Of a stretch of 64,000 bases of DNA, positions 21,387 through 31,279 are shown in pieces. The first letter of the stretch is position 1, and every line of letters starts with the position of its first letter. A model generated the notes under the pieces. That model made no database searches, had not been told where the DNA came from, and worked only from the letters and a program-made list of their open reading frames with translations. The position numbers and the translations under genes are program-made. This DNA comes from Candidatus Wolfebacteria bacterium RIFCSPLOWO2_01_FULL_45_19 (GTDB lineage Bacteria > Patescibacteriota > Minisyncoccia > UBA6257 > GWB1-45-9). The stretch is from contig MGIR01000001.1 in NCBI GenBank assembly GCA_001793855.1, positions 8,645-72,644 on the forward strand. The letters are read 5' to 3'.

Positions 21387-21725
21387 ATGACTATGGAAAA
21401 CCGCGAAAAACAAGACGAGACGGCCGATGAACGGCCTATGACAGAAACCGAGCTTACCATCAGCAATTGGTTCTGGATTGAGTTTATGAAACGTATGGGA
21501 AAATCCGAAGCCGATCTCCCGGCGCTTATAGAAAAATACGGCGGGCTCGAAGAACATATCTTTTTCAAAAATGAAGAACGCGCGGAACATCTCGACGACG
21601 CGGCGCTTGAATCGCTCGCGCGCGACGCGGAAGCCGTCTTATTGCGAGGAGAGCCGCTTGAATCGCACCCTAAATTGCTCAAGCTTTACAAGCATATTGA
21701 AGCAAAACTATTGCGGGGGCACTAG
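21387..21725 (+). CDS. hypothetical acidic protein
   Basis: ORF with a good upstream promoter. Its 3' end overlaps tRNA-Trp by ~12 nt. Confidence 0.35.
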   Translation: MTMENREKQDETADERPMTETELTISNWFWIEFMKRMGKSEADLPALIEKYGGLEEHIFFKNEERAEHLDDAALESLARDAEAVLLRGEPLESHPKLLKLYKHIEAKLLRGH

Positions 21726-21784
21726 GAATCGAACCCAGATTGGCGGTTTTGGAGACCGCCGTCCTGCCATTGAACGATGCCCCC
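21714..21784 (-). tRNA. tRNA-Trp (anticodon CCA)
   Basis: Manual cloverleaf: acceptor GGGGGCA/TGCCCCC, anticodon loop CTCCAAA, T-loop TTCGATT. Confidence 0.8.
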
Positions 21785-21794
21785 GGATTAAAAT

Positions 21795-21880
21795 CTCTAA
21801 ACCCTTATCTCTAAATCCTAAACGTTTGAAGTTTTGAATTTGAGATTTATTTAGAAATTAGATATTAAAAATTAGGATTT
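21795..21880. repeat. palindromic heptamer-repeat element (ctaaatcc / ggatttag family)
   Basis: The left arm tctaaacccttatctctaaatcctaaac is nearly identical to the arm of the element inside the 16S gene at 32221. Confidence 0.7.
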
Positions 21881-21891
21881 ACATAAAAAAG

Positions 21892-22062
21892 CTACTTTCT
21901 CGCTTCTTTATGCGCGGTATGTTTTCTGCACCAATCACAAAATTTGGAAAGTTCAATCTTTCTTTCAACTTTCTTTTTATTTTTGTGCGCATTATAATTC
22001 ACACGCTTGCATTCGGCGCAGCGAAGCCGCACAAATCTTTCCGATGTTTTTATTTTAGCCAT
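21892..22062 (-). CDS. rpmG: 50S ribosomal protein L33 (56 aa; not in ORF track)
   Basis: Minus-strand translation MAKIKTSERFVRLRCAECKRVNYNAHKNKKKVERKIELSKFCDWCRKHTAHKEARK. Confidence 0.8.
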   Translation of the reverse strand: MAKIKTSERFVRLRCAECKRVNYNAHKNKKKVERKIELSKFCDWCRKHTAHKEARK

Positions 22063-22069
22063 AATTTTG

Positions 22070-22141
22070 AGCCAGCGGGGAGAATTGAACTCCCGCTCTT
22101 TCCCTTACCAAGGGAGTGCTTTACCACTAAGCTACGCTGGC
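22070..22141 (-). tRNA. tRNA-Thr (anticodon GGT)
   Basis: Manual fold: acceptor GCCAGCG, D-loop AGTGGTA, anticodon loop TTGGTAA, T-loop TTCAATT. Confidence 0.7.
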
Positions 22142-22185
22142 GTCAGTATAACACATATTAACACGCTCAACAAGAAAGAAAAGTG

Positions 22186-22257
22186 AGCCACCTCTCGGAT
22201 TCGAACCGAGGACCCACGCTTTACAAAAGCGTTGCTCTGCCGCTGAGCTAAGGTGGC
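22186..22257 (-). tRNA. tRNA-Thr (anticodon TGT)
   Basis: Manual fold: acceptor GCCACCT, anticodon loop TTTGTAA, T-loop TTCGAAT. Confidence 0.75.
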
Positions 22258-22307
22258 GGATTGAATTTTGAAACGCCGCCGAATATAATAATACCACCGG
22301 TGAAAAA

Positions 22308-22394
22308 GCGCAGGTAGTCCCGTAGGGCGCGGGGGCAGACTGTAAATCTGTTGGCCATTGGCCCCGGTGAGTTCGACTCTCACTCTGCGCACCA
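22308..22394 (+). tRNA. tRNA-Tyr (anticodon GTA), long variable arm, CCA encoded
   Basis: Anticodon arm GCAGACTGTAAATCTGT and T-arm GTGAGTTCGACTCTCAC. The D-arm is unusual. Confidence 0.55.
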
Positions 22395-22581: not shown

Positions 22582-23787
22582 TTAGTAGTAAGTGTAAGTG
22601 GTATAACTTGAATAAGCGCTCCAAGTGCACAACCCGGCGTTCAGAGGAGAGCTAGTATTAGTAGCTTTTCTGGAACCGCCTCCGTAGGGATAACAACTTC
22701 CATCAAACGGCCAGCCATTGGCGTCGGAAGTAGGAACCGTGCCATTTTGAGCGTATAAAGACACTCCAGGACTACTGCAAGCATAAGTAAGATTTGTGCA
22801 GGTCGCGTCACTCATATAACAGTTGAAGCCATTCGTAACTCCGTTCCACGAAACCATCCAAAAGCTAACCGTGTCGGCGCCGGACTGGCAACTACTGGGG
22901 GTCGGCGGGGTACAACTATATGACGCTCCCGGAGTAGCAGTTGATGCACCATTTGCACATTGTCCCAAGAAATTATAGCCTGTGCCAGTAGTGTAATTAT
23001 CCCAATATCTGTTGCAATCCTCATCAATGAGAGGCGTTGCCGAACCGGACCCTCCTACTGCCGAACAAGTCGCATTTTGCGAGAACGCCGCGACTGACGC
23101 GCTGTCCGAAATCCGTTGCAGTCTGATTTGCAGTCCGGTTGCATTCCAAGTCGTTGCGGTAAAGTTATCGCCATTCAATTGAGCGGCCGCGTTGGTCGTG
23201 TTGGCATCGCAATTGTAAGTGGCATAGCTTAAGTCAGTCCATACTGAACCGGTGTAATACTGCAACCGACAGCCGCCCACCCCTCCGTTGCCTGTGCCGG
23301 CAGTCCAGCTGACGGTGAAGTCCCTGCGCCTGACCGTCTGAGTTAAGACAAGCGAAGTCGGCGGAGAAGAGGCGCCCCAAACACAAGAAGTCGCGCCGTC
23401 GCTGGTTTTAACCCAGCCGGTTCCGTTGCAGGCGCAGGTCGTGTAACCTGCAGTCATAGCCAACGATTTGCTTGTTGAAGCGTCACAAGTAAAAGGACTG
23501 GAAGAGTTTATTGGAAATTTTAACGCTCCTGTCGCCTCAATAATCCCGTTAATCGTGAGCTTGCTTGCCGGAGAAACTGTGCCGATGCCGACATTGCCGG
23601 TTCCGGGGTCAAATACTAAACCAGCGGTGCTTGTCGCGTTGCCTACCCGAAACCCGCCGCTCACGTCAAAAGTGTACTCCGGCGTTATTCCGATGCCGAT
23701 GTTTCCGCTACTGAACTTAAGGTTTCCACCGCCGATGCCTGGGCTTAAACTGGCGGGGCCGGTGAATCCGAGCGCGACAAAAACCAA
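22582..23787 (-). CDS. Cys/Thr/Gly-rich secreted or surface protein
   Basis: N-terminal hydrophobic segment. GTGNVGIGT repeats and many Cys. Confidence 0.55.
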   Translation of the reverse strand: MVFVALGFTGPASLSPGIGGGNLKFSSGNIGIGITPEYTFDVSGGFRVGNATSTAGLVFDPGTGNVGIGTVSPASKLTINGIIEATGALKFPINSSSPFTCDASTSKSLAMTAGYTTCACNGTGWVKTSDGATSCVWGASSPPTSLVLTQTVRRRDFTVSWTAGTGNGGVGGCRLQYYTGSVWTDLSYATYNCDANTTNAAAQLNGDNFTATTWNATGLQIRLQRISDSASVAAFSQNATCSAVGGSGSATPLIDEDCNRYWDNYTTGTGYNFLGQCANGASTATPGASYSCTPPTPSSCQSGADTVSFWMVSWNGVTNGFNCYMSDATCTNLTYACSSPGVSLYAQNGTVPTSDANGWPFDGSCYPYGGGSRKATNTSSPLNAGLCTWSAYSSYTTYTYY

Positions 23788-23863
23788 GAAACCGGAAACT
23801 AAGATACTTATTGATATTAATAGATATTTATTGATATTCGTGAATCCAGATTAATTTGTTTGC

Positions 23864-24331
23864 TCACCAGACGCATGCCGTTATGCCGTCGCTGGTTTTA
23901 ACCCAGCCGGTCCCGTTGCAGGCGCAGGTCGTGTAACCTGAAGTCAATGACAATGAGCCGGCATTTGAAGCGTTACAGGTAAAAGGAGCCGATGCGTTAG
24001 CCACCAATTTGAATCCCCCCAAAGTGGATTCAATAATCCCGTTGATCATGAGCTTGCTTGCCGGAGAAACGGTGCCGATGCCGACATTGCCGGTTCCGGG
24101 GTCAAATACTAAACCAGCGGTGCTTGTCGCGTTGCCTACCCGAAATCCGCCGCTCACGTCAAAAGTATATAAAGGCGTTATTCCTAAGCCGGTGTTTCCG
24201 CCAGAAGTTACAAAAAACCCAGAGCCAGTTCCCGGAGAAACCGAAGGGCCTGTAAATCCCAACACAACCGATACAAAGATGCCGGCGGATACTATTATAC
24301 CTGCGGATATCAACAGATATTTATTGATCAT
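23864..24331 (-). CDS. truncated paralogue of the 22582-23787 gene (tandem partial duplication)
   Basis: About 95% nucleotide identity over ~450 bp with 23390-23790. It diverges after TSDG. Confidence 0.5.
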   Translation of the reverse strand: MINKYLLISAGIIVSAGIFVSVVLGFTGPSVSPGTGSGFFVTSGGNTGLGITPLYTFDVSGGFRVGNATSTAGLVFDPGTGNVGIGTVSPASKLMINGIIESTLGGFKLVANASAPFTCNASNAGSLSLTSGYTTCACNGTGWVKTSDGITACVW

Positions 24332-24409
24332 TGCTTATAATTTTTTCTTTGTCTAACATTTTTTTATTATAGCATATTCGACCTTGTTTGTTGGTGGATG
24401 TGGATAAGT

Positions 24410-25363
24410 TCAGGGGCTCCAGTTAATGATGATGTCGGTTACGGTTGGGCCGACGGTTCGTCCAGTATCTGTTTCTAAAATAACTTTGTAGCGCCAGTAA
24501 CGTTTGTCGGTGTGACAAGTAAGGTCAATTTTGGATTGAATATTCGGGCCACCCGGATTGTAAAAATCGCCAACGCTACAGTTGGGTCCTCCGGGTCCGA
24601 CAAACGCGCCGTCGCCGGTCAATTTATCTCCTCCCCAGCCGACGCCGGTATCGCAAGTCGGAGAATTTGTCGCGCCATTGGAACAATTCGCGGCGGCTAT
24701 CCGAAAAAAAACGTTCGTGCCGCTTGGTTGCGTTCCCTGCCACATAATGGTGTTTATGGCGGAGCCGCCCTCAACCTGCGAGTCAAAAATACTTGAAATT
24801 AAAGTTCCTTCCGCGGGGTAGTTTGTCCAGCTTGTTTTGACTTTGTAATTGGAAGTTCCGCAAGTGTTTGGAGGACCGGCGCAATTGAAACTGAACCAGC
24901 CGACATCATTATTCCACGCCCAACCGGAGAAAATTCCCGTGCTCGGGTCAACGGATACTTTATAATTAGATTCCAAACAATTGTCATTTAGGCAGTTGAA
25001 ACTAATCCAGCCGACGCCGTCGTTCCACGCGAAGCCGCCAAGCTCGTTGGTGCTTGTGTTGTTGGTTACCTTAAAATTGCTCTGACCGCATATGTCCCCT
25101 GCCGGCGTTGTTTGGCAATTCAAAATAATTTCTTCGACAGTTGAGCTTGCCCAGCCGCGAAGTTCTGTTTCGTCAACAAAAACGTTGTTAGTGCCGTAAA
25201 AGTCAATCCAACCGATGGAATCGTTCCAGGCCCATTGTGTATATTCGGGTGGATTGTCCGGAATGATATTTGTTACGGCGAAAACCACCAGCCATGACGC
25301 GGATATGGCAGTTATAAATATAATAAAAAATATAATTAGTTTTTTCATACTAATATCCTTCAA
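24410..25363 (-). CDS. secreted repeat protein (~40 aa GWAWNDxxGWIxFNC repeats)
   Basis: N-terminal TM or signal sequence, then four Trp/Cys-containing repeats. Confidence 0.55.
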   Translation of the reverse strand: MKDISMKKLIIFFIIFITAISASWLVVFAVTNIIPDNPPEYTQWAWNDSIGWIDFYGTNNVFVDETELRGWASSTVEEIILNCQTTPAGDICGQSNFKVTNNTSTNELGGFAWNDGVGWISFNCLNDNCLESNYKVSVDPSTGIFSGWAWNNDVGWFSFNCAGPPNTCGTSNYKVKTSWTNYPAEGTLISSIFDSQVEGGSAINTIMWQGTQPSGTNVFFRIAAANCSNGATNSPTCDTGVGWGGDKLTGDGAFVGPGGPNCSVGDFYNPGGPNIQSKIDLTCHTDKRYWRYKVILETDTGRTVGPTVTDIIINWSP

Positions 25364-26531
25364 TCCTTATTTGCCCCGACGTGGCGTAATCAATGTTTGT
25401 TGAAGTGTTAAAACTCGCGGTGGTAGTAGCGGTAATTGGATTGTCTGTCGGATCTGTATAGCCGCCGCTCCAGTCGGTCTGCGAAAACAGGCGGTTAGAA
25501 TGACGGGTAAAATATCTGAACTGGCTGAAAGAATCAGTCGCGGCTAAAATTTCCCAGCCGGAAGTTACGGTTATTTTCTGAGTGGACGGGTCGTCGGTTC
25601 CGCTCACGGCTATTGCTCCGTTCGCGTCTCTATTTACGTTCTCAACATAAAAAGAGCGCATATATCTGTCACTGTTATAAATCTGCCAAATTTCATCGGC
25701 GGATAGGGCGCGGTCGTAAATGCGGACGTCGTCCAGCAGACCGTCAAAATAACCAGCAGAAACACGCCCGATGTCCATCGCCGAAGCGCCAACGCCTGTC
25801 GTGTCGGTTATAGCGACGTGGCGCCAAACCGCTGTAATAGTCGCGGACGCGGAACTGCCGTCCACATACACGATGGAGGCGGGGAAGCCCGTTGCGACAA
25901 CGTTGCTGTTTGCGTCTATTTCAATTTGAGCCGTCCCGTTCATATCAATTATTTTTTTTGATACTATAACATCCGCCTTCATCCAAAACATCACCGTCTT
26001 AATGCCGGCTCCAACATTGCCCAAAACGACATAATCCTCCGTCCCGTCAAATTCCAAACATCTGCTCAATTTGCAGGCGGAAGTTGAGGTCGCGCCGCCG
26101 GTGACTGTGCCGTCGTTATTGTTGTTCGTAGCGTCAAAAGCCGTAGTCGTTCCTACTGCCTCGTCAAATTTCCAGTAACCAACCAAGCCGTTAATAATGT
26201 CATCGCTGATAAGCCCCTCTTCGCCTTGTATAATCGTGGACGTCGCTCCAAACTTAATAAAATATTTATTCGCGGAGCCCTTATCTAAATTGTAAATATC
26301 GTGCCAGTTTTTTTCGGACATTCCCGCAAGCGAAATAAAATATTCGGATGTCAGACCGGCCGCTGTCTGCATCTGTTTGCTCTGCACGTTGCCGCGTAAT
26401 ATTCCCACGATACTAACCACCACTCCGCCGACAATAATGGCGCCAACGGCAATGGCGACGATAATCTCAAGAAGGGACTGCCCTTTTTGAGCTTTTAGCT
26501 TATAGCTTTTAGCTTTTAGCTGATTTTTCAT
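25350..26531 (-). CDS. type IV pilin-like protein with C-terminal LamG/concanavalin-like domain
   Basis: Prepilin leader KGQSLLEIIVAIAV (Glu at +5). LamG_3-like signature FDGLLDDVRIYDRALSADEI. Confidence 0.65.
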   Translation of the reverse strand: MKNQLKAKSYKLKAQKGQSLLEIIVAIAVGAIIVGGVVVSIVGILRGNVQSKQMQTAAGLTSEYFISLAGMSEKNWHDIYNLDKGSANKYFIKFGATSTIIQGEEGLISDDIINGLVGYWKFDEAVGTTTAFDATNNNNDGTVTGGATSTSACKLSRCLEFDGTEDYVVLGNVGAGIKTVMFWMKADVIVSKKIIDMNGTAQIEIDANSNVVATGFPASIVYVDGSSASATITAVWRHVAITDTTGVGASAMDIGRVSAGYFDGLLDDVRIYDRALSADEIWQIYNSDRYMRSFYVENVNRDANGAIAVSGTDDPSTQKITVTSGWEILAATDSFSQFRYFTRHSNRLFSQTDWSGGYTDPTDNPITATTTASFNTSTNIDYATSGQIRIEGY

Positions 26532-26708
26532 TGCAGTTTTTTAATTATTGTTGTCAACATTTTTTGAGCTTCCGTGAGAAATGCTTCAGCTTTAGAAAAG
26601 TCAACGTCTTTGTAAAGCTCTTTGGCTATTAATATTTGCGTTTCAAGCTCCGCGAAAGATTCTACGTACATAAATAATTTCTAAAAGCTACGAGCTAACA
26701 GCTATAAG

Positions 26709-27167
26709 CTATCTCGTGATATTTCCATTTTCCAAAACGCTTACATTGATTATACCGTCTCCGACGGTGGTTAGCAAAGTAAATGTAGCCGTATTATCAG
26801 GGACGCCGCTTATTTTAAGAAAATTGATTATCGTTGAATTTCCCTGCGCCGGAGAGCTGAATTCAATATGCGACGGCAAAGTTACCGAACGATGCGTAGT
26901 TGAAGCGCCACCGATTGTCTCGGCGTAAAAAATATCGTACCTATCCCCGTCACCAGCCGGCGCGTTTACATATACTCCCCAAAAACTTGATTCCAGTTCG
27001 CTTATGGAATTTTGCTGGGCTTCGCGAAGAGTTTGAACAAGCTTGTCTGATTCAAATTCCAAAGTACGTTGAACCCGCAAGTTTTGAATCGTGAGCAAAC
27101 CTATACCGCCGACAATCACCGTTATGCCGAGCGAAATCAGAAGCTCAATTAAGGTAAAACCCTTCAT
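26709..27167 (-). CDS. type IV pilin/pseudopilin
   Basis: MKGFTLIELLISL class III signal. Confidence 0.75.
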   Translation of the reverse strand: MKGFTLIELLISLGITVIVGGIGLLTIQNLRVQRTLEFESDKLVQTLREAQQNSISELESSFWGVYVNAPAGDGDRYDIFYAETIGGASTTHRSVTLPSHIEFSSPAQGNSTIINFLKISGVPDNTATFTLLTTVGDGIINVSVLENGNITR

Positions 27168-28375
27168 ATACTACCAATAAGTTGATAGATCGGAACTATT
27201 ATTGAAAGCGCTATTGTTCCTATTATAACTCCGAGAACGAGAAGCATTGCCGGTTCAAGGAACGACACAAGTGTTTTTATTGAATTGTCTATTTCCGATT
27301 CGTAAAACTTTGAAAGCGTGTCCAGGATGTCTTCCAAATGCCCGGCTTTTTCCGAAATCGCGACAAGATTGACGACAACTTTCGGAAAAACCTGCTCCCG
27401 TCTGAACGCATCGCCGACGGTCATCCCCTTAACGAGGCCCTCGCGCGAAACGCGCATAAGCGCCTCTTTCAATTCCTCCCAACCGACGGCCCGCGAAGTA
27501 ATTTCAAGCGAATCGGTTATATGCAAACCGGCGCGCATAAGAGACGAGAACGTGGAAGTAAATCTCTGCAAAGACGTTTTGCGTAAAACTTCGCCGAGAT
27601 ACGGAACGCGAAACGCGAAACGCTGAAGGACGCGCCTCGCGTTTATGTTTTTTGAAAGCACGTACCAGCCGCCGAAGGCCGCGCTCGCAAGCAAAATAAG
27701 AACATAAATAATATTATTACTGATAAAAAGCCCGACACCGAACACCACTCTGGAGAAAAGCGGCGGCTCAAATCCTCCGGTCATAAAAACTTCGGCTATT
27801 TTCGGCAAAGCGAAAGTAACCAAAAGAAGAAGAATGATGAAAGACGCGGCGAGAAGCACAACGGGATAAATGAGCGCGGAACGGATACGGCCTCGCAGTT
27901 CCTGTTCTCGCTCCAAAGAAACCGACAGGTCCTCAAGAACTTTGTCCAGAGTTCCGGATTTCTCGCCGGCGCGAATAAGATTGACAAACGCGGACGAAAA
28001 AAATTTCGGATATTGCGCGAAAGTGGTGTAAAACGGATTTCCTTTTTCAAGATTTGAGCGTATCTGAAGCAGAAGGGCTTTGATGGTCGGTTTTTCAAAA
28101 TCGTTTATAAGAATGTCTATTGCTTTGAAAAGGTCAGTTCCGGCCCTAAGCATCAGCGCGAGATATTTCGTCAAAAACAACTGATCAAGCGTGGTAAACG
28201 TGGGACCAAAAAGGCGGGCGCGAACCCCACCGCCAAAACCTTTGGCGATTTTTATAGAAATAGGGCGCAGGCCTTGCGCGCCAAGCTTCGCGAGCAATTC
28301 GTCGGTGTTCCCGGCTTCCATGCTATCTTCAACTATTTTTCCTTCCGCGTTAGACGCGACGTAATGGAATAACAT
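27164..28375 (-). CDS. pilC: type IV pilus platform protein PilC / GspF family
   Basis: Two GspF-type repeats and polytopic membrane topology. Confidence 0.8.
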   Translation of the reverse strand: MLFHYVASNAEGKIVEDSMEAGNTDELLAKLGAQGLRPISIKIAKGFGGGVRARLFGPTFTTLDQLFLTKYLALMLRAGTDLFKAIDILINDFEKPTIKALLLQIRSNLEKGNPFYTTFAQYPKFFSSAFVNLIRAGEKSGTLDKVLEDLSVSLEREQELRGRIRSALIYPVVLLAASFIILLLLVTFALPKIAEVFMTGGFEPPLFSRVVFGVGLFISNNIIYVLILLASAAFGGWYVLSKNINARRVLQRFAFRVPYLGEVLRKTSLQRFTSTFSSLMRAGLHITDSLEITSRAVGWEELKEALMRVSREGLVKGMTVGDAFRREQVFPKVVVNLVAISEKAGHLEDILDTLSKFYESEIDNSIKTLVSFLEPAMLLVLGVIIGTIALSIIVPIYQLIGSI

Positions 28376-28379
28376 AATT

Positions 28380-30089
28380 CTACTCCCTAATTACCCGAAG
28401 CACTTCTTCAAGCGTAGTCATGCCTTTTTCCGCTTTACGGAGACCATCTTCAAACATTGAAATCATTCCTTCTTTCCTCGCCAAGTTCTTAAGCGCGCCA
28501 AGAGAAAAGTCGGACGACACTATTAATTTTCGCACGTTTTCGGTAACATTCAAAACTTCAAAAATACCCATTCTGCCGCGATAGCCGGTGTTATTACAAC
28601 TGCGGCAGCCCTTGGCTTTGAACACAAGCTTAGGCGGTTTGAATTCACGGCTTATTCCGAGTTCCTCCCATTGTTTTTTAACCGCTTCAACGACATCCGA
28701 CGATGGTTTTTGCGACTGGATGCAATACGTACAAACGCGGCGCAACAAGCGTTGAGCCAGCACGGCGTTTATCACTGCCGCGACAAGAAAGGCGGGAATT
28801 TTCATATCGGTAAGACGAGGCACCGCGGTTGAGGCGTCATTGGTATGCAAAGAAGAAAGAACGAGGTGGCCGGTCAGCGCGGAGTGCACGGATATTTCAG
28901 CGGTTTCTTCGTCGCGGATTTCTCCGACCATTATTACGTTCGGGTCCTGACGGAGAATGGCGCGAAGTCCGTTCGCAAAAGTGATTCCGGCCTGCGGATT
29001 AATCTGCGTCTGATTGACATACTGAATATCGTATTCTATCGGGTCTTCAATGGTAACGATGTTGACTTCCGGACGGTTTAAAATGTTGAGAATGGAATAA
29101 AGCGTCGTGGTTTTTCCGGAACCGGTCGGGCCGGTAACCAACACTATACCGTAGGTCTTCTGTGTATTTTCTTTAATGGTTTTAACTGTATCTTCTTCCA
29201 TTCCCAATTCTTCAAAAGAAAGCGGTCGCTGAGCCGCGGTCAAAAGACGCATTTCAATTTTTTCCCCGTAAAAAACCGGCATAATCGCGACTCGGACGTC
29301 AACAATTTCTTTTTCTATTTTGTAACGAAATCTTCCGTCTTGCGGACGGCTGTGCTCGTCAAGTTTCAAACCGCTCACGAGCTTTATTCGCGCCGCCATG
29401 GCGTCGCTTATTTCTTTCGGCAGTTTGAGAATTTCATGAAGAATGCCGTCAACGCGGTACCGAATTAAAATAATATCTTCCAGCGCTTCAATATGGATGT
29501 CGGAGGCGCGAAGAGAAAGGGCGTATTTAAGAATATTGTCAACCAGCGCGACAATCGGAACGTCTTTCGCGGCTTCTTCCACGCCCGCGGCGCGCGAACG
29601 AAACGCCTGTCGCACATTTTCTTCCATTATTTTCTGGAAATCTCCGGAGAGTTCTTTGCCGTAAAAAGCATACGCCTTGTTGAGGTCGTCGTCGCTCGCG
29701 AGAAACGGGCGGACTTTGGCGTTGAATCTCCGTTCTATGAGTTCAACTGTTTCAAGATTGCCCGGGTCCTCCATCGCCACATCAAGCGTCCCGTCGGTTT
29801 CGCGGCCGAAAATCACGACGCGCCTCTGGCGCGCAACGTTTTCCGGAAGCATTCTCACTAAATTGTCGTCAAGCTGAATCTCCACGAAATTGGCTTTCCG
29901 GACTCCAAGATATTCGGCTACAATCTCGGCGAGGTAAGTTTGAGTAATTATATTTTTCGAAAGAAGAACGTCGTTTGTTGAGGTGCCGAGGCGCTCGGCT
30001 TCTTCTCTGGCCTGCTCAAAGGCTTCTGCCGTAATAAGACCGGCGTCAGTAAGAATCTGCTTTAACTTATCCGAAGGAATTTGAAGCAT
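28380..30089 (-). CDS. pilB: type IV pilus assembly ATPase PilB / GspE family
   Basis: Walker A GPTGSGKTTT, a Cys4 cluster, and a GspE N-terminal domain. Confidence 0.85.
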   Translation of the reverse strand: MLQIPSDKLKQILTDAGLITAEAFEQAREEAERLGTSTNDVLLSKNIITQTYLAEIVAEYLGVRKANFVEIQLDDNLVRMLPENVARQRRVVIFGRETDGTLDVAMEDPGNLETVELIERRFNAKVRPFLASDDDLNKAYAFYGKELSGDFQKIMEENVRQAFRSRAAGVEEAAKDVPIVALVDNILKYALSLRASDIHIEALEDIILIRYRVDGILHEILKLPKEISDAMAARIKLVSGLKLDEHSRPQDGRFRYKIEKEIVDVRVAIMPVFYGEKIEMRLLTAAQRPLSFEELGMEEDTVKTIKENTQKTYGIVLVTGPTGSGKTTTLYSILNILNRPEVNIVTIEDPIEYDIQYVNQTQINPQAGITFANGLRAILRQDPNVIMVGEIRDEETAEISVHSALTGHLVLSSLHTNDASTAVPRLTDMKIPAFLVAAVINAVLAQRLLRRVCTYCIQSQKPSSDVVEAVKKQWEELGISREFKPPKLVFKAKGCRSCNNTGYRGRMGIFEVLNVTENVRKLIVSSDFSLGALKNLARKEGMISMFEDGLRKAEKGMTTLEEVLRVIRE

Positions 30090-30093
30090 AGTT

Positions 30094-30162
30094 GTAATTT
30101 TGAATTTCTAATTTCAGTCATTTAAAATTGGTTCGAAATTCAAAATTCAAAATTGAAAATTA
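30094..30162. repeat. aaaattc heptamer palindrome
   Basis: taattttgaatttctaatttc ... cgaaattcaaaattcaaaattgaaaatta. Confidence 0.6.
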
Positions 30163-30707
30163 AAACCGAGCCCACTGAATATTATAACAGAGATGGATAT
30201 TGGTAGCCAAAGCCAATATAACGGAATACGCTTTTGTTGTTTATGAATAATGAATAATGAAGTATGAATTATGAGATATATGGACAAGACAGCGGCGAGC
30301 GCATACATCCATCCCGGGTGTCCCGCGAGAAAAAGCGCCCCAGCGGCGATGTACGGCTCTTCCTTTTCAAAAAAGCGGTCTTGGAATTTGCGGTTTAAAA
30401 ATTTCGCGCCGAGCAAAACAAAAAGCGCCGCGAAAAACGCCAAAAACGGCTGGATTAGAAAATTCGTGAAACTGTACAGCGCGAAATAACTGAAGCCGCG
30501 ATACGGCGGAACGAGATAGCTTGCAGGAGGGCCGCCGCCATGCCAAGCAAGAAACTGTTCCCGCATCCAATATGCCTGGATTGCGAAAATTACAATGACA
30601 GACAACCAAAACAGCGTTCTAAAAATTCGCGACTTATGCTCAAAAAAGAAGCGCAGTAGAATCTGCGCTCCCAAAAAAACAACCGCGGCGACTAAGCCAA
30701 CGGTCAT
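30147..30707 (-). CDS. polytopic membrane protein (possibly prepilin-peptidase-like; unassigned)
   Basis: Five to six TM helices between the pilin and pilB. No clear A24 motifs. Confidence 0.35.
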   Translation of the reverse strand: MTVGLVAAVVFLGAQILLRFFFEHKSRIFRTLFWLSVIVIFAIQAYWMREQFLAWHGGGPPASYLVPPYRGFSYFALYSFTNFLIQPFLAFFAALFVLLGAKFLNRKFQDRFFEKEEPYIAAGALFLAGHPGWMYALAAVLSIYLIIHTSLFIIHKQQKRIPLYWLWLPISISVIIFSGLGFNFQF

Positions 30708-31279
30708 ATGGTCAACTTGTTGCCGACTTCGTAAATGGTGGCATTGTTTCCTCCGTCCGTGCCTTCTCTGTCGTCAGTTCCGCTGGACGCGTAGCGTTCG
30801 CTTTCAAGATTCGCGGTCAGTTCGTACTTCAAAGTATCATGGCCATAAGCATAAAAGTAGGTGGCGTCATTAACCGGGTCAAGCGGCAAACCCACCAACG
30901 GCGAGCCGCCGGGTATGGACCCGAAATTAACCCTCACCCATCCGGTGGCGTCAGTCGCGCGCGCAATTGCTACCGTGGTTGTGGCTGTGGCTGTTATTCC
31001 GGCTGAATATCTGGTCGAGCCACTGCAAGTCACAACTGCCTGATCGCCGCCGACAACACATGTAGTCGTGGCTAAACCGTTCTGAAAATCAGGGCTAGAC
31101 ACGGTTGCTAGATACAATCCAAGAGCCGAGTGAACTGTTCCCAGATCGGAAACGCGCTGTGAATCGCGCGCCTGCCTTAAAAGTTCCGCCGGGTTAATAA
31201 CCAAAACCGCGACCGTAGATAAAATTGCCAGAAGGCCGATAACGATAAGGAGCTCTATTAATGTAAAACCTTTTTTCAT
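30704..31279 (-). CDS. type IV pilin (probable major pilin)
   Basis: MKKGFTLIELLIVIGLLAIL. Confidence 0.8.
   Translation of the reverse strand: MKKGFTLIELLIVIGLLAILSTVAVLVINPAELLRQARDSQRVSDLGTVHSALGLYLATVSSPDFQNGLATTTCVVGGDQAVVTCSGSTRYSAGITATATTTVAIARATDATGWVRVNFGSIPGGSPLVGLPLDPVNDATYFYAYGHDTLKYELTANLESERYASSGTDDREGTDGGNNATIYEVGNKLTI

What the first reader, a model, noticed from the sequence alone, without database searches (positions are those of the whole stretch)
23390..24331. Recent ~450 bp tandem duplication creating a truncated paralogue of a Cys-rich surface protein
23390-23790 and 23875-24330 are ~95% identical at nucleotide level. The downstream copy keeps the N-terminal ~150 aa, then diverges after TSDG to a new short C-terminus (ITACVW-stop). 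Such duplications at surface-protein loci can drive antigenic or adhesin variation.
Basis: seen in the sequence. Interest (0 to 1): 0.5.

Follow-up and report, generated by a model that had tools for sequence, protein, structure and literature searches.

The report
Old tandem duplication in surface-protein gene
A groundwater Parcubacteria genome carries two adjacent, diverged copies of the first ~465 bp of a secreted fibre-like protein gene. The duplication is real but old and patched by gene conversion, which makes it an ordinary paralogue pair, with one unproven hint that the copies can recombine into a single gene.

Summary
The repeat is real: 23372-23835 and 23862-24328, direct, spaced 490-493 bp, BLAST E 9e-88. 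It is not ~95% identical. Identity is 76.5% over the unit and 75% at protein level. Only two tracts are near-identical: 145 nt at 93.8%, including a 74-nt exact run, and 60 nt at 96.7%. Synonymous divergence is ~0.8-1.2 outside the tracts and far lower inside them (Fisher p=2e-8). So this is an old duplication with gene-conversion patches.

Both genes are on the minus strand. The short gene (24331-23864, 155 aa) is therefore upstream. It has the ATG, a promoter-like extended -10 and a signal peptide. It ends at ...TSDGxTxCxW, the natural terminus of a widespread small 4-Cys domain, not a new C-terminus.

The long gene (23835-22582) has lost the ATG (AAT ATC). It adds an fn3-like domain and a Cys-rich module that other bacteria fuse to type IV pilins.

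Eleven contigs from separate assemblies contain the junction, so the duplication is not an assembly artefact. One contig (L092) carries a clean short/long fusion encoding a 418-aa protein. That could be a real deletion allele or a collapsed assembly; only reads can decide.

The parts
24366..24374 (-). Promoter-like extended -10 element (TGCTATAAT), ending 34 nt upstream of the ATG of the short gene
   Evidence: Read directly from the sequence and located. The two-hexamer scan did not list it because there is no -35 match. Function is inferred, not shown.
23864..24331 (-). Short gene B: 155 aa, ATG start, TGA stop. It encodes a signal peptide (MINKYLLISAGIIVSAGIFVSVVLG|FTGP), a GNVGIGT-type stalk motif and a small C-terminal 4-Cys domain.
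   Evidence: ORF. The exact protein is KKU15185.1 / OGM91566.1 and occurs on 13 contigs. Relatives end at the same ...C.W. Residues 110-155 are modelled at pLDDT 90-95.
23862..24328 (-). Repeat copy B (467 nt)
23836..23861 (-). 26-nt junction between the copies (AAACAAATTAATCTGGATTCACGAAT in gene orientation). It matches neither copy. No terminator-like site lies between the genes.
23372..23835 (-). Repeat copy A (464 nt), the 5' part of the long gene
22582..23835 (-). Long gene A. The frame is open for 417 codons from ATC at 23835. B's ATG is AAT here. The only ATG/GTG/TTG start that keeps most of the ORF is TTG at 23787 (401 aa), which removes most of the signal peptide. Gene callers disagree, giving 401, 360 or 291 aa.
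23579..23652 (-). 74-nt run identical to 24072-24145 in copy B. It lies inside homogenised tract 1 (A 23537-23681 / B 24030-24174, 93.8%). The crossover of the fused contig L092 falls inside this run.
   Evidence: The run shows no unusual RNA fold (z = -0.79).
24072..24145 (-). Partner of the 74-nt identical run, in copy B
   Evidence: Short contigs L001, L008, L009 and L011 end at or inside this run or its partner in copy A.
23395..23454 (-). Homogenised tract 2 (96.7% identical to 23885-23944 in copy B). It encodes GYTTCACNGTGWVKTSDG.
23059..23358 (-). fn3-like beta-sandwich that opens the C-terminal module of gene A (..FTVSWTAGTGNGG..)
   Evidence: Pfam fn3 match is weak (E 0.081). The AlphaFold model has pLDDT 82-92 over about residues 1-100. 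Every listed Foldseek hit up to about E 0.1 is to fn3-type beta-sandwich domains (best E 0.011, probability up to 0.98).
22585..23058 (-). Cys-rich C-terminal region (IDEDCN..WDN ... YTYY). Its fold was not predicted.
   Evidence: Invariant Cys, Asp and Trp columns are shared with P0002-P0010. pLDDT is below 50. In P0006, P0007, P0009 and P0010 the same module follows a type IV pilin N-terminus.

Best explanation
This is a genuine, lineage-specific and old tandem duplication of the first ~465 bp of a gene for a modular secreted protein. The duplicated part encodes the signal peptide, a GNVGIGT-type stalk and a small 4-Cys domain. The gene sits at the 3' end of a type IV pilus operon in a Rifle-aquifer Parcubacteria genome labelled Wolfebacteria.

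The upstream copy became a free-standing 155-aa gene. It has its own promoter-like element and ATG, and its stop falls exactly at the natural domain end. The downstream copy stays fused to an fn3-like plus Cys-rich module but has lost the ATG. It probably depends on a weak start (ATC at 23835 or TTG at 23787) or on reinitiation after the short gene.

The copies have diverged to 75% amino-acid identity. Two tracts have been re-homogenised by gene conversion, so the pair still recombines.

Shown: the anatomy, the age pattern, the presence in many assemblies, and the domain boundaries. Inferred: secretion, co-transcription, start-codon use, and a surface or adhesive role.
For: -
- Age: dS is 1.21, 0.84 and 0.98 in the diverged segments, against 0.25 and 0.48 in the segments that contain the tracts. 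Overall dN/dS is about 0.34.
- Gene conversion: among codons with the same amino acid, 3 of 56 differ synonymously inside the tracts, against 30 of 58 outside (Fisher p = 2e-8). The core shows no RNA-structure signal (z = -0.79).
- Reality: the tandem layout is 99.7-100% identical in six contigs that span both copies (L003-L007, L010). Five more contigs contain the junction (L001, L002, L008, L009, L011). The pair is adjacent as UX23_C0004G0041 / 0040 in GW2011_GWB1_45_9.
- Complete short protein: both copies keep all 21 family-invariant residues, including 4 Cys. Seven relatives end at ...C.W.
- Lineage-specific: the closest homologue, P0002 (50% identity), is a single gene lying directly after a 315-aa gene of p317-like size, whose identity was not checked. 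Seven related pilus operons keep pilC, pilin, p393 and p317 but lack both genes.
- The ATG is lost in copy A.
Against: - No expression or read data exist, so it is unknown whether the long gene is translated or from which codon.
- If it starts at TTG 23787, the signal peptide is destroyed and the gene may be decaying.
- Gene conversion is inferred from one pairwise comparison with no outgroup orthologue.
- Protein function rests on weak similarities: Bd2133 at E 0.0024, no Pfam, NCBIfam or PHROG family, and low-confidence models outside two domains.
Confidence: 0.8

Rival explanations
1. Recombination switch. In the tandem state, the long gene's fn3/Cys-rich module is poorly made or not exported, because it has no ATG and at best a weak start. 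Homologous recombination across the identical tract deletes 493 bp. That joins the short gene's promoter, ATG and signal peptide to the long gene, switching on or changing display of the module in a subpopulation.
For: - Contig L092 (ERZ28564304, SAMN03202998 scaffold_9911, 6825 bp) carries exactly this product. It matches copy B up to the 74-nt identical run and copy A after it, giving one 418-aa ORF, P0018.
- L092 shares two background SNPs (19521, 22740) with the tandem contig L006, so both forms appear in one strain background.
- The gene-conversion tracts show that the copies do recombine.
- The ATG is lost in copy A.
Against: - Only 1 contig shows the fusion, against 11 with the junction.
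- A tandem repeat with an exact core forms a loop in a de Bruijn graph, and assemblers often drop such loops. L092 may therefore be a collapsed assembly.
- L092's one private SNP (23576) lies 2 nt from the first A-specific marker, which is suspicious.
- The second chimera, P0013, comes from a protein-level assembly (SRC). Its junction has no DNA homology, so it is probably artificial.
- The deletion would be one-way, not a reversible switch.
- No reciprocal product is on record.
Confidence: 0.2
2. The long gene is a decaying remnant. After the duplication the short gene took over, and the downstream copy lost its start and is no longer made.
For: There is no ATG/GTG/TTG start that preserves the signal peptide. 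Gene callers disagree on the start, giving 401, 360 or 291 aa.
Against: - The 417-codon frame is intact, with no stop or frameshift in any assembly.
- All residues invariant among P0002-P0010 are retained in its C-terminal module.
- The signal-peptide segment shows dN/dS of about 0.18 despite saturated dS.
- ATC is a permitted start codon in genetic code table 11 (own knowledge).
Confidence: 0.15
3. A recent duplication, or an assembly expansion.
For: Two tracts are 94-97% identical.
Against: The unit is 76.5% identical with 11 gap columns, and dS is about 1 in the flanks. Eleven contigs from separate assemblies and two deposited genome bins hold the same sequence. Copies this different cannot arise from mis-assembly of one copy.
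Confidence: 0.03
4. A template/variable repeat pair of a diversity-generating retroelement.
For: There are two nearby repeats in a surface-protein gene of a CPR bacterium, a group rich in such elements (own knowledge).
Against: Mismatches are spread over all bases: in copy A, A 33, T 26, C 23, G 23. Indels are present. The repeat covers the 5' end including the signal peptide, not a C-terminal variable region.
Confidence: 0.01

Closest known systems
Recombining tandem or paired paralogues of surface proteins, such as Helicobacter pylori babA/babB chimeras and Streptococcus pyogenes emm/enn fusions (own knowledge, not tested here)
   Same: The paralogues share 5' sequence, show gene-conversion tracts, and have a candidate chimeric fusion that changes which promoter and leader drives the variable C-terminal part.
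   Different: Here only one chimeric contig exists and it may be an artefact. One partner is a 155-aa stub rather than a full-length paralogue. The organism is an uncultivated Parcubacteria, and no phenotype is known.
Silent-cassette antigenic variation, such as Neisseria pilE/pilS (own knowledge)
   Same: A start-less copy lies next to an expressed copy, and sequence moves between them by gene conversion.
   Different: There are only two copies and no cassette array. The start-less copy is the longer one and carries the unique domains. The possible deletion would be irreversible.
Bdellovibrio MAT (mosaic adhesive trimeric) fibres and phage tail-fibre-like proteins (PMC10769870)
   Same: - The architecture is a signal peptide, a repetitive beta-rich stalk and an exchangeable tip.
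- There is a weak sequence match to the Bd2133 beta-helix region (8ond_A, E 0.0024).
- Relatives that share the GNVGIGT motif carry Peptidase_S74 or Lcl_C tips.
   Different: - The protein is far shorter (155 or 417 aa, against about 1000).
- It has no S74 domain.
- The ~130-aa post-signal domain that defines MATs was not shown.
- Trimerisation is untested, and Foldseek matches are not significant.
Type IV pilins with large C-terminal domains
   Same: The fn3-like plus Cys-rich module of the long gene is carried on a prepilin N-terminus in P0006, P0007, P0009 and P0010. P0006 follows a LamG-type pilin gene, as this locus follows p393 and p317.
   Different: Neither gene here has the N-methylation motif. 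They have an ordinary Sec-type leader followed by FTGP.

Membership tests
Tandem segmental duplication (paralogous direct repeat) | Two adjacent direct copies with similarity beyond chance | tested here: met
   Spacing is 490-493 bp and BLAST E is 9e-88
Tandem segmental duplication (paralogous direct repeat) | Present in the organism, not created by assembly | tested here: met
   Eleven contigs from separate assemblies contain the junction. The genes are adjacent in GW2011_GWB1_45_9. Reads were not available.
Recent duplication | Near-identity along the whole unit and low synonymous divergence | tested here: not met
   Overall identity is 76.5% and dS is 0.8-1.2 outside two tracts
Gene conversion between paralogues | Tracts where synonymous sites are far more alike than in the flanking sequence | tested here: met
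   3 of 56 against 30 of 58 synonymous differences, p = 2e-8. Includes a 74-nt exact run. No RNA structure signal.
Recombination-based phase or antigenic variation | Both parental and recombinant alleles coexist in the population | tested here: inconclusive
   One fused contig, L092, plus one chimera from a protein-level assembly, P0013. Assembly collapse is not excluded.
Diversity-generating retroelement target | Template/variable repeat differences confined to adenines | tested here: not met
   The substitution spectrum covers all bases
MAT / tail-fibre-like trimeric fibres | Beta-helix stalk repeats related to solved fibres | tested here: inconclusive
   8ond_A at E 0.0024 over 57 residues. 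Foldseek E is at least 0.19. The stalk is modelled at low confidence.
MAT / tail-fibre-like trimeric fibres | S74 chaperone/protease domain, or the conserved ~130-aa domain after the signal peptide | tested here: not met
   Neither protein has a Pfam S74 match. The post-signal domain was not compared directly.
MAT / tail-fibre-like trimeric fibres | Trimer formation | not testable with these tools
   Only monomer models could be built
Type IV pilin | N-terminal prepilin cleavage/methylation motif | tested here: not met
   Neither gene has an N_methyl hit, while neighbours p393 and the 152-aa pilin do

The most novel reading that the evidence does not exclude
The pair acts as a one-way recombination switch for a host-attachment protein of an ultrasmall episymbiotic bacterium. 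The short gene holds the only efficient promoter, ATG and signal peptide. The long gene is a nearly silent cassette carrying an fn3-like plus Cys-rich binding module. Crossing-over in the gene-conversion-maintained identical tract creates cells that display the full 418-aa protein, as in contig L092.
Probability: 0.2. Interest if true: 0.55.

Novelty: new member of a known kind. Interest (0 to 1): 0.3.

Why it matters
Patescibacteria (CPR) live attached to other microbes. Type IV pili are conserved in the group and thought to mediate that contact (abstract of PMC11623550). How their surface proteins vary is almost unknown.

This locus shows that a variable slot at the end of a conserved pilus operon holds a modular fibre-like protein. 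That protein has been duplicated, partly homogenised by gene conversion, and possibly re-fused. If the fused allele is real, it would be a simple, testable case of recombination-driven variation of a surface protein in an uncultivated lineage. If it is not real, the locus is an ordinary diverged paralogue pair.

The case also shows how a tandem repeat with an exact core can be collapsed by one assembler and resolved by others.

Tried and rejected
- **Family searches:** Pfam, NCBIfam and PHROGs scans of both proteins gave no family, only a sub-threshold fn3 match.
- **Representative genomes, long protein:** the scan found no relative, so the species or this gene is absent from that collection.
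- **Representative genomes, PilB:** the second scan gave only relatives at 65% identity or less. These keep the pilus operon but lack both genes.
- **Metagenome contigs:** a scan with a 44-nt core sequence found nothing, so that collection does not hold this organism. A junction-specific scan would have been pointless.
- **Short protein against clustered proteins:** the word-indexed search returned only its own cluster. The exhaustive HMMER search was needed to find relatives.
- **Structure models:** they are confident only for the 4-Cys domain (B residues 110-155) and the fn3-like domain. Foldseek against PDB gave nothing significant for the short protein.
- **P0013 as a second recombinant:** rejected as evidence. 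It comes from a protein-level assembly, and its junction has no nucleotide homology.
- **Terminator between the genes:** none was found. A hairpin plus T-run at 24236-24218 inside the short gene is within chance expectation.
- **Shine-Dalgarno motifs for choosing the long gene's start:** uninformative, because only 5 of 50 long ORFs in the window have one.
- **Read-through of the short gene's TGA into the long gene:** rejected. The long frame is offset by +1, and the short frame hits TAA 12 codons later (read from the sequence).

Full report

Yes, in outline. A direct tandem repeat lies at 23372-23835 (copy A) and 23862-24328 (copy B). The copies start 490-493 bp apart and are separated by a 26-nt junction that matches neither copy. 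Self-BLAST gives 85% identity over 318 nt, E 9e-88. tblastn finds no third copy in the window.

The stated ~95% identity is not correct. Over the unit, 355 of 464 positions match (76.5%), with 11 gap columns. Two tracts are near-identical:
- A 23537-23681 / B 24030-24174, at 93.8%, including a 74-nt exact run
- A 23395-23454 / B 23885-23944, at 96.7%

**2. Anatomy**

- **Short gene B (24331-23864).** It encodes 155 aa with an ATG start and a TGA stop. A sequence TGCTATAAT (24374-24366), an extended -10 type, ends 34 nt upstream of the ATG (function inferred).
- **Long gene A.** It is open for 417 codons from 23835 to 22582. Where B has ATG ATC AAT, A has AAT ATC AAT.
- **Start of A.** The only ATG/GTG/TTG start that keeps most of the ORF is TTG at 23787. 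That would leave just MVFVALG of the leader. Gene callers in different assemblies chose 401, 360 or 291 aa. ATC at 23835 is an allowed but weak start in table 11 (own knowledge).
- **Between the genes.** No terminator-like site lies there, so co-transcription is likely (inferred).
- **Ribosome-binding sites.** The genome hardly uses Shine-Dalgarno motifs (5 of 50 long ORFs), so they cannot settle the start.

**3. Age and recombination**

A codon alignment gives dS 0.58 and dN 0.20 overall. The pattern is a mosaic:

| Codons | dS |
|---|---|
| 1-30 | 1.21 |
| 31-52 | 0.84 |
| 53-102 | 0.25 |
| 103-125 | 0.98 |
| 126-156 | 0.48 |

Among codons that encode the same amino acid, 3 of 56 differ synonymously inside the two tracts, against 30 of 58 outside (Fisher p = 2e-8). 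Protein-level constraint cannot explain synonymous identity. The core also has no unusual RNA fold (z = -0.79).

The best reading is an old duplication whose copies have exchanged sequence by gene conversion. Mismatches involve all four bases, which rules out a diversity-generating retroelement pair.

**4. Not an assembly artefact, with one exception to explain**

The exact short protein is on 13 contigs.
- Six contigs span both copies at 99.7-100% identity to the window: L003, L004, L005, L006, L007 and L010.
- Five more contain the junction: L001, L002, L008, L009 and L011. Several of these end at or inside the identical run, as expected for graph breaks at a repeat.

The two genes are adjacent as UX23_C0004G0041 / 0040 in Parcubacteria group bacterium GW2011_GWB1_45_9. 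The short protein is also OGM91566.1 of a Candidatus Wolfebacteria bin.

One contig differs. L092 (ERZ28564304, SAMN03202998 scaffold_9911) has a single 418-aa gene, P0018. It matches copy B up to the 74-nt run and copy A after it, a clean 493-bp deletion. Outside the repeat it differs from the window at three positions:
- Two (19521 and 22740) are shared with the tandem contig L006.
- The third (23576, Val to Asp) is private and lies 2 nt from the first A-specific marker.

L092 is either a real deletion allele in the same strain background or a collapsed loop in the assembly graph. I cannot decide without reads.

A second chimera, P0013, comes from a protein-level assembly. Its junction lacks DNA homology, so I discount it.

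**5. What the proteins are**

No Pfam, NCBIfam or PHROG family fits either protein.

*The N-terminal module.* An exhaustive HMMER search with the short protein finds 4910 proteins at E of 0.001 or less. Most are very large, with many copies of the GNVGIGT-type stretch. Some of the relatives scanned carry Peptidase_S74 or Lcl_C tips. The only solved relative is the beta-helix part of the Bdellovibrio fibre Bd2133 (8ond_A, E 0.0024; PMC10769870).

The last ~45 residues (PF.C.A...LTS.Y..C.C.G..WV.TSDG.T.C.W) form a separate small domain with four invariant Cys. It is modelled at pLDDT 90-95. Seven of nine aligned relatives end exactly at that final W. Two continue into other domains, as gene A does. 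The short protein is therefore a complete, recurrent architecture, not a truncation with a new tail.

After the leader, both copies and relatives share FTGP. This suggests signal-peptidase cleavage (inferred).

*The C-terminal module of gene A.* It begins with an fn3-like sandwich. A Cys-rich region of unknown fold follows. In P0006, P0007, P0009 and P0010 the same module follows a type IV prepilin N-terminus. P0006 sits next to a LamG-type pilin gene.

**6. Context**

Upstream on the same strand lies the operon pilB - pilC - pilin - LamG pilin (p393) - W-rich p317. That order is conserved in seven related Parcubacteria loci, the nearest being Harrisonbacteria at 65% PilB identity. None of these has either gene, and what follows p317 varies.

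The closest homologue, P0002 (50% identity), is one gene directly after a 315-aa gene of p317-like size, with no short copy; the identity of that neighbour was not checked. So the ancestral state was most likely a single N+C gene, and the duplication is specific to this lineage.

**7. How it most likely works**

Shown:
- two diverged copies
- conversion tracts
- intact frames
- loss of the ATG in copy A
- natural domain boundaries

Inferred:
- Both genes are transcribed from the element upstream of B, or by read-through from the pilus operon.
- B is made efficiently and secreted as a short stalk plus 4-Cys tip.
- A is made weakly, from ATC or TTG or by reinitiation. It carries the same base plus a binding-type module that other bacteria mount on pili.

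Recombination between the copies keeps the stalk core alike and may occasionally fuse the genes. I put 0.8 on the structural and evolutionary account and 0.2 on the switch reading. The 0.15 I give to the long gene being a decaying remnant concerns only whether that gene is still expressed, and it fits within the structural account.

**8. Comparison and verdict**

The locus resembles recombining surface-protein paralogues (H. pylori babA/babB, S. pyogenes emm/enn). More loosely, it resembles silent-cassette systems (own knowledge). It has only two copies and no proven population heterogeneity. The proteins look like miniature relatives of tail-fibre-like or MAT fibres, but membership is not established.

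Verdict: a real but ordinary paralogue pair and a new member of a known kind. Interest is 0.3.

Noticed in passing
window 24410-31279 (minus strand): A complete type IV pilus operon: two small pilin-like genes, then pilB (28380-30089), pilC (27164-28375), a 152-aa pilin (26709-27167), a 47-aa ORF (26528-26671), a LamG-domain pilin (25350-26531) and a W-rich 317-aa protein with WAWND.GW..F repeats (24410-25363). The pilC-to-p317 order is conserved in seven related Parcubacteria loci, while the gene after p317 varies.
   Followed up: partly
window 26721-26748 and 31217-31250: Strain SNPs are clustered. Four fall within 28 nt (26721, 26738, 26744, 26748; contigs L004 and L005) at the 3' end of the 152-aa pilin gene. 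Three fall within 34 nt (31217, 31235, 31250; L003) in an upstream pilin-like gene. The rest of the ~17 kb is almost invariant. These may be small recombination patches or hot spots in pilin genes.
   Followed up: no
L016 15647-17035: In a related genome, the p317 homologue (462 aa) contains an internal, nearly perfect duplication of about 150 aa (NKWAWNDSFGWMNFF...SFNCSNTSTCGTVSYKV occurs twice). It is followed by a 330-aa secreted protein with tail-fibre-like N-terminal motifs. This is another duplication in the same operon neighbourhood.
   Followed up: no
whole window: Only 5 of 50 long ATG-started ORFs have a Shine-Dalgarno-like motif upstream, so this is a low-SD genome. Start-codon calls for genes such as the long paralogue are therefore unreliable.
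   Followed up: partly
window 21713-22394: Immediately downstream of the long gene lies a tRNA cluster: Trp, Thr-GGT and Thr-TGT on the minus strand, and Tyr on the plus strand. The rpmG gene (L33, 21892-22062) sits between the tRNAs.
   Followed up: no
L010 (window 23638, 23645): One short contig from another sample (ERZ4903055) has two non-synonymous differences (V64G, N66K) inside copy A's otherwise identical core. These are either low-coverage errors or a strain in which the conversion tract has begun to diverge.
   Followed up: partly
window 24218-24236 (minus strand): A hairpin followed by a T-run (TCCGGGAACTGGCTCTGGG TTTTTTGTAA) lies inside the short gene, in a segment specific to copy B. 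The count of such sites in the region is within chance expectation.
   Followed up: no
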